Shown here: one piece after another, positions 923 to 55,151 of the stretch
Position numbering within the stretch: position 1 is the first letter of the stretch
Layout: every line of letters starts with the position of its first letter
Assembly (NCBI GenBank): GCA_964016885.1
Contig: CAXHJY010001673.1
Location: 69,366-133,365 of the forward strand
Direction of reading: 5' to 3'
Length of the DNA stretch: 64,000 bases
From: Eledone cirrhosa
Taxonomy: Eukaryota
Made by a program: the position numbers and the translations under genes
Notes under the pieces: model-generated
Told to the model about the DNA's origin: nothing
Database searches by the model: none
Seen by the model: only the letters and a program-made list of their open reading frames with translations

Positions 923-1350
923 TAAAACGTTAGAATATGTGTAATAAGGCCAAGACAATGCAGATATGGACATAGAAAAAAGAATGCAATAGTGAAAGAT
1001 ATTGATGTGAATTCGTCTTTCACCTTGAATTTATTTAAATGTCCTTAATTTTCGAGATAATATCTCTTCTTCGGAGGGAAGTAAAGGTCTCAGTCCAGCG
1101 TCTTTAAATCTCTAATATTTAGAGATTTAAAGACGCTCTGAGACCTTTACTTCCCTCCGAAGAAGAGATATTATCTCGAAAATTAAGGACATTTAAATAA
1201 ATTCAAGGTGAAAGACGAATTCACATCAATATCTTTCACTATTGCATTCTTTTTTCTATGTCCATACCTGCATTGTCTTGGCCTTATTACACATATTCTA
1301 ACGTTTTACCTCATTACACAATGCTTCAAGTGAACTATAACCTCCTCCCA
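923..1350 (+). mobile_element. Hairpin element in (TA)n (PLE pLTR-like): ~190-bp inverted arms plus 42-nt tail
   Basis: Arms 923-1115 and 1119-1308 are reverse complements apart from one substitution and a 3-nt indel. Unpaired tail 1309-1350. TA tracts on both sides. Related to 32514-32730. Confidence 0.85.
1154..1188 (+). ncRNA. Minimal type I hammerhead-like motif, U4C core variant
   Basis: CCU-CCGAAGA-A-GAGA(uauua)UCUC-GAA-AAUU-A^AGG. Stem I CCU/AGG, palindromic AAUU stem III. Mirrored on the minus strand in the left arm. Confidence 0.5.
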
Positions 1351-1396
1351 TATGTATATATATATATTTAATAATAATAGTATATATTAAATCATT

Positions 1397-1469
1397 TTTC
1401 ATTCTAATGAACGATTTCAGATGTCCGTGTCGAGCTCGTCTTCCTTCGTGAAACCTTTGGTAAATGGAA
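1397..1469 (+). ncRNA. Degenerate type I hammerhead (G5A), family C
   Basis: UUUCAUU-CUAAUGA-ACGA...UCGU-GAA-ACC(uuu)GGU-A^AAUGGAA. Downstream sequence matches 6580-6680 and 54541-54630. Confidence 0.6.
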
Positions 1470-1566
1470 TAATTGTCTTATGTTGTTTATTACATAACTA
1501 ACTATATATATATATATATATATATATATATATATATATATATATATATATATATATATATATATA

Positions 1567-1758
1567 AGACCCAGTAGAGGAAGACCACGAAAATCATGAG
1601 AGCTGATCTCAGAACGCTGAAGCTCACGGAGGAGGTGAAGAAGGACCGTAACGAACGATCGTAACGAATGGAGAGATGCTGTGCTGAATAGGGAATGTCC
1701 CACCCTTGAAAGCAGGGATAAGCAGACGTAAAATGATGATGATGATGATGATGATGAT
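1567..1758 (+). mobile_element. RTE-type LINE 3' end with (GAT)n tail
   Basis: Translates as RPSRGRPRKS...DLRTLKLTEE..KDRNEWRDAV, matching the RTE C-terminal RGRP..W / DR..W motifs, then a trinucleotide tail. Confidence 0.7.
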
Positions 1759-1780
1759 ATATATATATATATATATATAT

Positions 1781-1958
1781 CCAGTGGGTGTAACTAGGAG
1801 TTACTGCAGGTTTACCCGGGTGAGCACTCGATGTTTAGGTTCACTTCTGTGATGATGTGTAGAGCTATACAGAGTGTAAAATATAGAAAGGATAAAAAGG
1901 ACGATTGATTATTCCTTCGTTGCATTTTATTGATAGGTGACGCGCGTTTCGCCACTGA
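1781..1958 (-). mobile_element. 5'-truncated ribozyme element in (TA)n with the 3' half of a hammerhead
   Basis: Minus strand reads GC-GAA-ACGCGCGU-C^ACC (1939-1950), then AATAAA, and a tail with GAGTGCTC (1822-1829). Homologous degenerate copy at 55960-56040. Confidence 0.6.
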
Positions 1959-2554
1959 TATATATATATATATATATATATATATATATATATATATATA
2001 TATATATATATACATATATATATATTGGTAAACGGAATAGAAAATGCTGACAAATTGTTCACAGTTGAAAAATGGTTTAATTAGGAATAAAAGAGTATTA
2101 GTGATTGTATGGGTTAGTATTCAGTTGTGGTTTTAAGTTTTTAAGTTTTTACCGGTTGCGCATTTCTAAATGCTTTTCAAAAATAATTTTGAGATAGAGT
2201 GTCCGTGCTGTTTGCTCTGATCTGATTAGTTTTGGGAATTCTACCTGTTTTTATGTTAAAAAAGTGGCTCCAGCGTTATTTTTGTGTTGCAAAAATGCTT
2301 GTGGTCAAAACAATTTTGATTGGTCGGTAGAGGTCATGTGAATGTAAAAAGTTGATTTTGCGCCAAGACTGTATATATATATATATATATATATATATAT
2401 ATATATATATATATATATATATGCAAAGTTTTATTTAAATTGTTGGGTTAACAACGAGTAAATATTTATAACTGATATAAAAGCACTCAACAAGTATTTG
2501 GAGTATATTTACGATATTAAATAAATGGAAACTATATTTATAAAACCATATTTA

Positions 2555-2616
2555 TTTCATTATATATATTTCAGGGATATCATATTAAAAATATGTTATG
2601 CCTTCTTCAGACAAAA
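2555..2616 (-). ncRNA. Type I hammerhead ribozyme (left arm copy)
   Basis: Reverse complement of 2713-2774. Confidence 0.7.
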
Positions 2617-51788: not shown

Positions 51789-52105
51789 TATATATATATA
51801 TATATATATATATATATATATGTGTGTGTGTGTGTGTGTGTGTATGTGTGTGTGGGTGTTTGTGTGGGTGTTTGTGTGTGTGTGTACTGTAATGTACGAA
51901 CGCAAGTACAGAGCACTCAATACATTGTGAATAGATTATAAGTGTATGTGTTTGCATGTATGTGTATATATATATATATATATATATATATATATATATA
52001 TATATATATATATATATATATATATATATATATACATATATATATATATATATATATACATACATATATATATATATATATATATATATATATATATATA
52101 TATAT

Positions 52106-52195
52106 ATAGGAAAAGAGTCAGGACCCCGACGGCTGAGCTCCGGCCGTTTCGGCAGATAGTTCCTTACAACACTACACTTCCTTCGATATATATAT
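52106..52195 (+). mobile_element. Family A element (internally deleted)
   Basis: taggaaaagagtcaggaccccgacggctgagctccggccgtttcg...gttccttac...acacttccttcg. Confidence 0.75.
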
Positions 52196-53525
52196 ATATA
52201 TATCTGTGTGTGTGTGTGTGTGCGTGTGCGTGTGTGTGCGTGTGTGTGTGTGTGTGTGTGTGTGTGTGTGTGTGTGTGTGTGTGTGTGTGTGTGTGTGTG
52301 TGTGTGCGTGCGTGCGTGTGTGTGTGTGTGTGTGTGTGTGCGTGCGTGCGTGCGTGTGCGTGTGTGTGTGTGTTTATGTGTGTGTGCTTAACGAGAAAAA
52401 AACCATATTTCCACCAACGTTAGTTGAACAAAATTGTCACCACTGAAACAAACAACAGCAAGCGTGGTCTTCATGTGAAAAATAATAACATGAATTTGAA
52501 GTCAATTTCCTCGGCTTAATTGATTGATATCTTACTTACAACACTGACTGGGCCGGGCTGACATCCCCCTCCTTCTCCTACACGTCTTTTCTAAATGAAA
52601 TATGTATCATCCTTGGAGTTAGAGGGAGACAGCAGCCTATGGGTATAGTTTTTGTTTAGCTCAGGATAGATCAGAAGATAGCTTGATAAATAGATATAGA
52701 TAGATAAATAGAGAGGGTATGGAAAGATATTGAGAGAGTTAACTGATGATAGAATCAGACCACAGAGATAGAGAGAGAAGAAAAAAACATTGCGATATTT
52801 CAAGCAATTGGGAGTCTGACTCGTTATCCTAGTTTTCTTCATTCAACACTGTGTCATTTCATCACACGTATGCAATTTGTCATTTCGTATCCGTCAAACA
52901 GTCCACAGTGAACTCAATATTCTATTTATGTCCGATATATTTAACTTGGTTAACTACTTAACACATTTCTGTCATGTTGTATATAGACTAATTCCTATCT
53001 CTCAACACCTTGGCGTTTAACTTGTCTGACCTGACAAGTGGGCTATACTGTATAGCTACAGTATTGAGTCTACAGGGAATGTAAAATGTAGATGCAGTCA
53101 CTTCACTCACAGCTCAACACATATTTTACTCACTGAATCAAAGTAGGCACTGAAAGTGAAAGGTTTGATTTGGTTCGGGAAGAAGAATTTGTTTTCATTG
53201 AATTACGTATATAACTTATGTATGTATATACGTGTATACATCTATCTCCCCCCCCCCCCTCTCTCTCTCTCTCTCTCTCTCTCTATATATATATATATAT
53301 ATATATATATATATATATATATATATATATATATATATATATATATATATACATATATACATACACACACACACGCACACATATATATATCTCATATTTT
53401 TGTAATGATATATGTGTGTGTGTGTGTGTGTGTATTCATATATATATATATTTATATATATGTGTATATATATATAAATATATTTATCAGTCTCTATCTT
53501 TCTCTCTGTCTATATATATATATAT

Positions 53526-53686
53526 ATATGAATAAAGTTAATCCTTCATCAGTGATCTTCCAACCATCATTGGTATTTCATCGCTTAAAGCGATGAAATA
53601 CCAATGATGGTTGGAAGATCACTGATGAAGGACTAACTTTATTCATATGTAGCCCATTAGCAACCACGCAGCACGTTTATTCTCAT
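53526..53686 (+). mobile_element. Hairpin/tail element, ~60-bp arms plus ~38-nt tail
   Basis: atatgaataaagttaatccttcatcagtgatc...atcgc-ttaaa-gcgat...gatcactgatgaaggactaactttattcatat with one mismatch. Confidence 0.88.
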
Positions 53687-54540
53687 ATATATATATATAT
53701 ACACACATAAATACACCACACACATACATACATGCATATACACACACATACACATACACATACATATATACACATATATATTTAATTATATATATATATA
53801 TATATATATATATATATATATATATATATATATATATATATATATATATATATATATAGTAGAATAATCGAGTATCGAAAAATCGGCGCACGAGTTCACG
53901 ATAAACAAAATTCGAGATGAGCGGCAGATATACGCAGGGCAAGGAAATACTTGATTTTGGTGTCCCAGTGCATATAGCTGACTCAGGCGTGTGAAACCCC
54001 TGGTCTTTGATATTAGGACATAATTCTAGGAGAAGGGTAACAAATATAAAACTTGCAACTAGATGCCAACTAATGACTTTGACTTGAACTGATCTTCCTT
54101 CGTTTTGGACACCGTTCACCCTTGTTCAGGAATGAACCAGTGCAAGGCTTTCTTCATTTAAACAACTATATATATGGATGCTGGCCGACCGCCGCAACTT
54201 CTATTTTACTAACTCCACTATTATATATATATATATATATATATATATATATATATATATATATATATATATATATATATATATATATATGTATGTATGT
54301 GTATATGTATGTGTATGTATATGTATACACATATATATGTGTGTGTGTGTGTGTATATGTGTGTGTGTATGTATGTGTGTATGTATATATATATATGTGT
54401 ATGCATATGATTGTGTGTGTGTGTGTGTGTGTTTGCATGTGTGTTTATTTTTCCTTTCCTTCTTCCTTTTCCAGCCTCACTTTCATATAGATTATATTTT
54501 TGATTTTTAAAATCCAATACCAATAAATACACCAGGATTT

Positions 54541-54601
54541 TTTCATTCTGATGATTGAAAGCAAAATTTGTTTGCTTTTAAGAAAGCACTGGTAAATGAA
54601 A
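54541..54601 (+). ncRNA. Type I hammerhead ribozyme, family C
   Basis: UUUCAUU-CUGAUGA-UUGAAAGCAAA(auuug)UUUGCUUUUAA-GAA-AgC(acu)GGU-A^AAUGAAA. Compensatory stem I changes relative to 6620-6679, one stem III mismatch. Confidence 0.8.
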
Positions 54602-54928
54602 TAATTGCCTTATGTTGTTTATTACATAACTATATATATATATATATATATAACAGATTAAAGTTTAAGCAAAGAAAAGCTTTCACTCTTAACAGAATCT
54701 TTTGAAACTAAAATAATCAATCTGAGAACGCAGAAGTAAATATTTCAAAAAACGTTGCAACCAGAGGAAGACAGAAAGACGATACTTTGGTTCGTGGAAA
54801 CGTTCTCTGGCAAAGAACGGATAAAGACAATATATATATATATATATATATATATATATATATATAAAACTTTTAAGCTTGTTGAATCCCAACAAATTAA
54901 AAATAACCTCTGCATATATATATATATA

Positions 54929-55151
54929 TAACGAAGGAAATGTGGTAATGAACCAGGTGGACCATAACACACCAAAGTACTCAATACTTAGGGTAGTAGA
55001 GTGGGTACGAGTAGGACGAATAGGACTCCGACGGCTGAGCTCAAGCCGTTTCGACGGCTAATTCTAGACAGAATTAGCCGTCGAATTAGCCGTCCAGAAT
55101 TAGCCGTCGAAACGGCTTGACCTCAGCCGTCGGGGTCCTACTCGTTCCTAT
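54929..55151 (-). mobile_element. Family A hairpin/tail element with triplicated axis sequence
   Basis: Tail 54929-55005. gaattagccgtc occurs three times at 55071-55109 next to the axis. Confidence 0.88.

What the first reader, a model, noticed from the sequence alone, without database searches (positions are those of the whole stretch)
923..55151. Stereotyped inverted arm + forward arm + unpaired tail architecture in at least 7 unrelated families
Seen: hairpins at 923-1308, 2510-2819, 9820-9928, 18133-18281, 26138-26250, 32228-32354, 36092-36275, 38707-38821, 39001-39442, 44521-44636, 53526-53648 and 55010-55151. Each has an unpaired 38-160-nt tail on one side only. Where a ribozyme motif is present, both arms point outward from the axis. 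Within a family the inverted arm stops at the same place while the axis position varies. A fixed outer end with a variable inner end is the signature of 5'-truncated reverse transcription, not of MITE TIRs. It matches the known PLE inverted pseudo-LTR plus tail structure. Such elements are easily misannotated as MITEs or assembly errors.
Basis: partly seen in the sequence, partly recalled or inferred. Interest (0 to 1): 0.75.

Follow-up and report, generated by a model that had tools for sequence, protein, structure and literature searches.

The report
Penelope retroelement hairpins mark RNA start
These hairpin-plus-tail repeats are real, very abundant end fragments of Penelope-like jumping genes inserted in TA repeats, and in the commonest family the fold point likely marks the capped start of the element's RNA, which would mean each hairpin is two short reverse-transcribed copies joined head to head.

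Summary
All 12 hairpins are real, with one-sided tails of 38-163 nt. In 0.93 Mb of blind genome samples, 39 of 74 hairpins share the layout (control positions 2.5%), roughly 10^5 genome-wide. They are Penelope-like element (PLE) ends, not MITEs. Family A has a full pLTR-ORF-pLTR-tail copy; C, D and F sit next to PLE ORFs; B, E and G are ORF-less so far. The layout is in print (PMC8557442, PMC3846280), and the tail equals two RT start sites (PMC11167929).

Two corrections. (1) The families are not all unrelated: A, B, D, E and F share a tail hairpin, and A, D and F have Hydra-clade motifs. (2) The axis is not always variable. In A, 126 of 149 arms stop within 15 nt. The mode is an initiator-like A about 30 nt below a TATA-like box, with an extra G beside it in 16 of 26 arms versus 8 of 92 elsewhere. 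That points to run-off at a capped RNA end, with two cDNAs end-joined (58 distinct junctions in 60 hairpins). No RNA data were available.

The parts
923..1350 (+). Family C hairpin 923-1308 plus tail 1309-1350; hammerhead-like core (CCGAAGA variant) in both arms
   Evidence: GIY-YIG ORF with two Cys inside the motif ends about 380 nt upstream of the matched unit in L083, L091, L094
2423..2819 (-). Family D hairpin 2510-2819 plus tail 2423-2509; very young family; tail runs into a Hydra-type RT ORF in L116 and L130
   Evidence: (40 of 40 scored hits 100% identical)
9820..10000 (+). Family B hairpin 9820-9928 plus tail; minimal hammerhead-like motif
18133..18352 (+). Older family-B-like hairpin 18133-18281 plus tail; no long flush (TA)n on the arm side
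26066..26250 (-). Family B hairpin 26138-26250 plus tail 26066-26137; axis just 5' of CTGATGA, at an initiator-like site 32-33 nt below TATAAA in long copies
   Evidence: Rfam hammerhead match only 11.6 bits, below threshold
32228..32431 (+). Family A hairpin 32228-32354 plus 78-nt tail; keeps only the 3' half of the hammerhead
36010..36275 (-). Family E hairpin 36092-36275 plus tail 36010-36091; derived from an ORF-less tandem unit of about 550 bp with a hammerhead-like core
38628..38821 (-). Family A (divergent subfamily) hairpin 38707-38821 plus tail
38838..39442 (-). Family F hairpin 39001-39442 plus 163-nt tail; hammerhead-like core with long stem II; Hydra-type endonuclease upstream in long copies
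44521..44714 (+). Family A hairpin 44521-44636 plus 78-nt tail
53526..53686 (+). Family G hairpin 53526-53648 plus 38-nt tail; ORF-less tandem unit of about 640 bp; no complete hammerhead found; parent unknown
54931..55151 (-). Family A hairpin 55010-55151 with reiterated junction insert, plus tail
47129..47292 (-).
   Evidence: endonuclease link in L140, L157, L342
6428..6567 (-). Short asymmetric family A hairpin plus tail, not listed
46145..46275 (-). Mini family A hairpin plus tail, not listed
51045..51303 (+). Two adjacent family A insertions: an inverted arm joined directly into the tail (51045-51171) and a 36-nt hairpin plus tail (51188-51303)
20659..20775 (-). Family A inverted arm joined directly into the tail (same form at 44745-44867 and 50523-50616)

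Best explanation
The hairpins are short insertions of Penelope-like retroelement ends in (TA)n repeats, each likely formed from two cDNAs primed on the two sides of one cut and joined head to head. Step 1 (shown): every family has two main 3' stops, J (end of the inverted arm) and T (end of the tail), both at TA-containing sites and usually followed by (TA)n. Step 2 (inferred from PMC11167929, where a PLE RT starts at two internal RNA sites that bound the tail and both DNA strands are cut and extended): one target end primes at T, the other at J. Step 3 (inferred): in family A, and probably B and C, the template is an mRNA that starts inside the 5' pLTR about 60 nt (C: about 195 nt) above J, so both cDNAs run off its capped 5' end and sometimes copy the cap as an extra G. 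In tandem ORF-less units (E, G) and in D and F there is no nearby hard stop and arm lengths vary. Step 4 (inferred): host end-joining fuses the two free cDNA ends, giving a unique junction each time, with small overlaps, reiterations or A/T runs. Confidence is about 0.95 for PLE origin, about 0.7 for the RNA-start reading in family A, and about 0.6 for twin priming over fold-back.
For: PLE origin: L229 holds pLTR, tail, ORF (RT with YRDDGL), 3' UTR, pLTR, tail, (TA)n for family A. Same-sense PLE ORFs adjoin C, D and F units; Pfam GIY-YIG hits for 2 of 7 ORF pieces tested, those used as queries for C and H.

Two stops: family A, 58 ends at +1 and 74 at +81 of 148 units; 13 and 11 of 33 in blind samples. 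Raw reads from three other samples with the same species label show (TA)n loose ends at both places. In blind samples 13 of 16 pairs are J+T and none is J+J or T+T. A bulged hairpin lies 5-12 nt past J in A, B, D and E and in the window copy of F, and a second one 4-8 nt past T in A, D and E; 28 of 51 tails carry it versus 1.9% of shuffles.

Axis: 126 of 149 family-A arms end at -52 to -66, and 18 of 20 in blind samples. The mode is the A of TTAGTCC, 29-31 nt below a TATT(T/C)A box in 8 long copies. G is the adjacent base in 16 of 26 arms at -60 versus 8 of 92 at other stops (p=8e-8); counting only bases not explained by element sequence, 8 of 11 versus 5 of 27 (p=0.003). An untemplated 5' G is read as cap copying in L1 (PMC9341517, passages). 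9 of 11 strand-switch joints in raw reads fall at -50 to -61, 6 of them at -59 to -61.

Independent origin: 58 distinct junctions in 60 hairpins; 1 shared rare variant versus 70 one-arm differences; 2 of 56 hairpins have arms from different subfamilies.
Against: No RNA run was available, so the start site is inferred from DNA only. 37 of 149 A arms extend to -61..-65 and 23 further, which needs a second start or longer templates. 8 of the 16 G's can be explained by the partner arm or other element sequence, and the blind-sample G test alone is too small (2 of 2 versus 3 of 13, p=0.1). In B, G follows -60 in 4 of 4 arms but by eye only 1 is clearly untemplated; divergent A subfamilies gave no clear signal. 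C has only a weak TATA candidate and its cluster is partly set by the query; D has none convincing. 54 of 56 hairpins have same-subfamily arms (35% expected at random), which fits single-template fold-back equally well. D. virilis Penelope has a TATA-less internal promoter (PMC2377424, passages). No parent ORF was found for B (0 of 24 long copies with a contiguous same-sense ORF), E or G. No Rfam hammerhead passed threshold in 3 of 3 small scans.
Confidence: 0.68

Rival explanations
1. Single-cDNA fold-back (self-priming): one cDNA from T runs to the RNA end, snaps back on a short palindrome, copies itself, and is cut or stops at J before joining the target.
For: Self-priming was proposed for palindromic PLE junctions (PMC3846280, passages), and endonuclease resolution for the tail (PMC8557442, passages). 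54 of 56 hairpins have same-subfamily arms; some junctions are perfect palindromes.
Against: 2 of 56 hairpins have arms of different subfamilies. Some junctions carry an extra G on both arms (L011, L060). Many arms ending at J have no partner arm or join straight into the tail. In vitro the PLE protein extends both strands from two start sites (PMC11167929, parts 1-2 read).
Confidence: 0.22
2. The axis cluster reflects an RT pause, RNA processing or an endonuclease cut at an A/T-rich site in the hammerhead stem II loop, not a capped start.
For: The A axis lies at the edge of an A/T tract, and the PLE endonuclease prefers ATT (PMC11167929). Arms end over a 15-nt window rather than at one base.
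Against: The predicted ribozyme cut is at -20, not -60. A pause or cut does not explain a G excess at one position only. The B axis is not in an A/T tract.
Confidence: 0.2
3. The hairpins are MITE-like or other units amplified whole from master hairpins.
For: 3 of 54 family-A pairs are symmetric with two tails; earlier scan notes report edited hairpin RNAs copied back into DNA (not tested at scale here).
Against: 58 distinct junctions in 60 hairpins; only 2 of 74 blind hairpins have flush TA on both sides; parents carry RT and GIY-YIG, and no transposase link was seen; no A-to-G excess in the 44-nt arms of same-subfamily hairpins among 55 usable ones, at most 1 A>G per copy.
Confidence: 0.04
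4. The hairpins are assembly or library artefacts.
For: No long read or contig spanning a window hairpin with its unique flanks could be shown; short-read libraries can form fold-back chimeras (recalled).
Against: Arms differ from each other as much as from other copies (2.64 versus 2.63 differences per 44 nt); outer ends are family-fixed; the same ends and strand-switch joints occur in raw reads of three other samples.
Confidence: 0.02

Closest known systems
EN+ Penelope-like elements with inverted 5'-truncated pLTR and one-sided tail (Craig et al. 2021 PMC8557442 and Arkhipova et al. 2013 PMC3846280; passages seen)
   Same: Head-to-head inverted copy, tail at one end only, partial tandems, (TA)n targets, hammerhead in the pLTR.
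   Different: Here most copies are reduced to 50-250-nt arms with no ORF, number roughly 10^5, and have tails of 38-163 nt rather than 30-40. The axis is tightly clustered in some families.
Poseidon_Ac (PAc) in vitro system (Frangieh et al. 2024, PMC11167929; parts 1-2 of 4 read)
   Same: Two internal RT start sites bound the tail; both DNA strands are cut and extended; the signal is a stem-loop near the ORF start.
   Different: Different clade. The parts I read do not explain the inverted arm or its inner end. PAc starts without homology to the target, whereas here both stops fall at TA-containing sites.
Hydra clade of C-terminal EN+ PLEs (PMC8557442, passages)
   Same: Families A and D show RW(R), DKT, a CxCX5C linker, no Cys pair inside GIY-YIG, CxxC and CxH, and (TA)n insertion; F shows the endonuclease-side motifs.
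   Different: RWR rather than RWK; no tree was built; C and H have a Cys pair inside GIY-YIG and are not Hydra.
Metazoan non-LTR retrozymes (PMC7229834, passages; bioRxiv 10.64898/2026.07.22.740005, part 1 of 5)
   Same: E and G are ORF-less tandem units; E carries a type I hammerhead-like core.
   Different: Units are 550-640 bp rather than about 300; G lacks a complete hammerhead; both show PLE-type inverted arm plus tail ends ('inverted' occurs 0 times in PMC7229834). Circular RNA was not tested.
L1 twin priming and retroviral strong-stop DNA (recalled; cap-G from PMC9341517, passages)
   Same: Both target strands prime, the cDNAs are joined by end-joining, and run-off at a capped end leaves an extra G.
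   Different: L1 twin priming inverts an upstream segment without duplicating it; here both arms copy the same segment.

Membership tests
EN+ Penelope-like elements | Single ORF with RT and C-terminal GIY-YIG endonuclease in the parent | tested here: met
   A: L229 and L043; D: L130; C and F: endonuclease directly upstream of the pLTR. Not found for B, E, G.
EN+ Penelope-like elements | Partial tandem forming pseudo-LTRs | tested here: met
   L229 (A), L130 (D), and tandem units in E and G
EN+ Penelope-like elements | Inverted 5'-truncated copy and optional one-sided tail | tested here: met
EN+ Penelope-like elements | Hammerhead motif in the pLTR | tested here: inconclusive
   Core words plus stem I and III pairing in A-F by descriptor, with variant cores and weak or offset stem II in A, C, E; none in G; below Rfam threshold; cleavage untested
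EN+ Penelope-like elements | RT phylogeny within PLEs | not tested
Hydra clade (A, D, F) | DKT in place of DKG; RWK-type motif | tested here: met
   A: RWR and DKT; D: RWR and DKT; the RT of F was not seen
Hydra clade (A, D, F) | CxCX5C linker; CCHH absent; CxxC and CxH near the C-terminus | tested here: met
   A (L043), D (L130), F (L190, L195)
Hydra clade (A, D, F) | Insertion in (TA)n | tested here: met
   A: TA after 60 of 64 J ends and 74 of 76 T ends
Hydra clade (C, H) | CCHH absent | tested here: not met
   Two Cys inside GIY-YIG in L094 and L259; Neptune/Nematis-like, not placed on a tree
MITE | Symmetric terminal inverted repeats with a constant internal sequence across copies | tested here: not met
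   58 distinct junctions in 60 hairpins; 2 of 74 symmetric
MITE | Fixed-length target-site duplication | not testable with these tools
   Insertions lie in (TA)n and no empty-site alleles were obtained
Non-LTR retrozymes (E, G) | ORF-less tandem unit with a type I hammerhead | tested here: inconclusive
   E: tandem plus variant core; G: tandem without a complete core
Non-LTR retrozymes (E, G) | Self-cleaved circular RNA | not testable with these tools
   No RNA holder listed

The most novel reading that the evidence does not exclude
PLE reverse transcription begins near the 5' end of the capped mRNA and first makes a strong-stop-like cDNA. The hairpins are abortive products in which two such cDNAs were joined instead of jumping to the RNA's 3' end. 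In family A the mRNA would start inside the hammerhead, so only the downstream pLTR could self-cleave, leaving a 40-nt terminal repeat (-60 to -20) for a retrovirus-like strand transfer that builds pLTR-ORF-pLTR-tail copies.
Probability: 0.35. Interest if true: 0.8.

Novelty: new variant of a known kind. Interest (0 to 1): 0.5.

Why it matters
The layout itself is known. What is added is scale and a mechanistic handle. How PLEs form inverted pLTRs and partial tandems is stated as open in PMC8557442 and PMC11167929. Tens of thousands of independent junctions in one genome give exact predictions: the RNA start at J-60, two start sites each a few bases before a conserved bulged hairpin, and an extra G. 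Cap mapping and an in vitro assay can test these directly. For annotation, roughly 10^5 such hairpins could be miscalled as MITEs or microRNA precursors; several window hairpins score on Rfam miRNA models below threshold.

Tried and rejected
Rfam scans gave no hammerhead above threshold; ribozyme calls rest on descriptor pairing only.

No RNA holder was listed, so expression is untested. The roughly 30-fold depth drop at L229:7692 in RAD reads was rejected as evidence, because molecule ends fall on AATT sites, which points to the library enzyme. Laying reads on window 38560-39520 gave no piece spanning a window hairpin with unique flanks and no empty site.

A search for the family-B parent found long copies of about 700-800 nt that start at a microsatellite-like tract, with no contiguous ORF in 24 of 24. 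No parent was found for G in the loci held.

The T-to-A excess at -21 in forward arms was rejected as query bias, since raw reads show about 1.5%. No ADAR-type A-to-G excess was seen in the family-A arms examined; this set favours young copies and does not test the earlier notes. The extra-G test in divergent A subfamilies was uninformative. over-extended into TA runs and was redone. Searches used one reference with a private variant at -65 and were redone with the long copies as added references.

Literature: searches listed no paper on cap-marked or strong-stop PLE hairpins or on these elements in cephalopods. Only listings and the passages cited were seen; no supplements were opened, and those of PMC8557442 and PMC11167929 may bear on clade assignment and start sites. 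[quoted passage not shown]
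Full report
Setting. The window is G000:C1700:69366-133365 in a 3.0-Gb genome with four chromosomes of 380-440 Mb. It is 33% GC and rich in microsatellites. Earlier scan notes call the genome octopus-type; I did not test that.

Observation. All 12 hairpins exist with near-perfect arms, except the more degraded 18133 and 38707 copies. They fall into 7 sequence families: A (32228, 38707, 44521, 55010 and about ten partial copies), B (9820, 18133, 26138), C (923), D (2510), E (36092), F (39001) and G (53526). 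A masked scan recovered 12 of 12 and found 47173-47292, which has the same layout (family H), plus two other fold-backs. In 99 stretches of 10 kb taken at round coordinates on large chromosomes (0.93 Mb after edge trimming), 39 of 74 hairpins had (TA)n flush on one side and a 35-176-nt spacer before (TA)n on the other; 2 of 74 were flush on both sides; 112 of 4425 control positions showed the one-sided pattern. That extrapolates to roughly 10^5 in the genome. The 39 plus 12 window cases form 21 clusters; not all were shown to be PLEs.

Identity. Each family has hundreds to thousands of first-look candidates in G000. Locus L229 holds a complete, broken family-A element: pLTR, tail, ORF with RT, 3' UTR, pLTR, tail, (TA)n. 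The tail is the element sequence between the pLTR and the ORF start. PLE ORFs adjoin C, D and F units in the same sense. A and D show RWR, DKT, CxCX5C, no Cys pair within GIY-YIG, and CxxC and CxH; F shows the endonuclease-side motifs. These are the Hydra-clade features listed in PMC8557442 (passages). C and H have a Cys pair within GIY-YIG and belong elsewhere. E (about 550 bp) and G (about 640 bp) are ORF-less tandem units, and B long copies showed no contiguous ORF in 24 of 24. PLE-like ORF pieces occur in 13 of 39 blind stretches. Hammerhead-like cores with stem I and III pairing occur in A-F but not G; none passes Rfam thresholds.

Outer ends. Every family has two main 3' stops, J and T. 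In A, 58 of 148 units end at +1 and 74 at +81, nearly all followed by (TA)n. In blind samples 13 of 16 pairs are J+T and none is J+J or T+T; in the query-selected A set 48 of 54 are J+T, 3 T+T, 1 J+J and 2 other. B has two J stops 13 nt apart and G has extra minor stops. Raw RAD reads of three other samples show (TA)n loose ends at both J and T of family A. A bulged hairpin (RCTC...GAGY) begins 5-12 nt past J in A, B, D, E and the window copy of F, and a second one 4-8 nt past T in A, D and E; 28 of 51 tails carry it versus 1.9% of shuffles, though 17 of the 51 are family A. I noticed the first hairpin; the twin came as a lead from earlier notes and was confirmed. This matches PMC11167929 (parts 1-2 read), where a PLE RT starts at two internal sites that bound the tail.

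Inner ends. In A, 126 of 149 arms stop at -52 to -66, and 18 of 20 in blind samples. The mode, -60, is the A of TTAGTCC, which fits the initiator consensus YYANWYY (recalled), 29-31 nt below a TATA-like word in 8 long copies. B has CCAGATT at -60, 32-33 nt below TATAAA. The base next to -60 is G in 16 of 26 A arms versus 8 of 92 at other stops (p=8e-8). After removing bases explained by element sequence it is 8 of 11 versus 5 of 27 (p=0.003). An untemplated G is taken as cap copying in L1 (PMC9341517, passages). In raw reads 9 of 11 strand-switch joints map to -50..-61. Against: 60 of 149 arms go beyond -60, the blind-only G test is underpowered (p=0.1), B has only 1 clear case in 4, and there are no RNA data.

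Junctions and templates. 58 of 60 junctions are distinct, many with reiterations or A/T runs, so hairpins are made anew rather than amplified as units. Arms of one hairpin differ as much as arms of different copies (2.64 versus 2.63 per 44 nt), with 1 shared rare variant against 70 one-arm differences. 54 of 56 have same-subfamily arms and 2 are mixed. The mixed pairs and the junctions with an extra G on both arms favour two separately primed cDNAs; the concordance does not exclude fold-back, which PMC3846280 proposed (passages).

Mechanism. Shown: two fixed stops, TA flanks, one-sided tail, PLE parents for A, C, D, F and H, a clustered axis with G excess in A, and unique junctions. Inferred: a double cut in (TA)n, priming at T on one side and J on the other, run-off at the capped RNA start, and end-joining. 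Speculative: the same run-off cDNA normally jumps to the ribozyme-cut 3' end to build full copies.

Comparison and verdict. The miniature, very high-copy form with a start-site axis was not in the listings. The scan has reported these elements, the twin tail hairpins and the RNA-start idea from other windows of this genome. I had entered the cap-site reading before that look-up, and a word search for it returned nothing. Score 0.5: real and mechanistically useful, but a variant of a known structure.

Noticed in passing
   Followed up: partly
window 11374-11557: Inverted duplication with (TA)10 at its centre and microsatellite-containing arms, the opposite layout to the PLE hairpins; origin unexplained.
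   Followed up: no
window 24570-24639: A 35-nt fold-back inside a LINE-like ORF remnant (about 24195-24982), after which the ORF continues; looks like a template switch during copying.
   Followed up: no
window 41430-41640, also 10811-10967, 17006-17112, 25111-25327, 31479-31683, 33433-33599, 45560-45739, 49006-49497, 55310-55419: A dispersed SINE-like repeat of about 200 nt with at least 9 copies; ARAGORN finds no tRNA in the window.
   Followed up: no
window 20659-20775, 44745-44867, 50523-50616, 51045-51171: Family A inverted arms joined directly into the tail with no forward arm, often at a short shared word; a by-product expected from end-joining of two cDNAs.
   Followed up: partly
L229:4600-5200 versus L229:7560-7810: The 5' pLTR of the full family-A copy has GAC at the predicted ribozyme cut triplet and the 3' pLTR has GTC; the site is the centre of a 7-bp quasi-palindrome, and GAC is about 1.5% in raw reads.
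   Followed up: partly
L045, L043, L103: Inverted arms can be over 1-2 kb long and include the 3' UTR and endonuclease region, linking the short hairpins to classical PLE inverted repeats.
   Followed up: partly
window 48265-48744: Tandem array of a 77-bp unit, 6.2 copies, 96% matches.
   Followed up: no
run X4 (organism B): Contigs of a second organism hold pieces of families A and F at 95% or more identity, so these families are shared with a relative.
   Followed up: no
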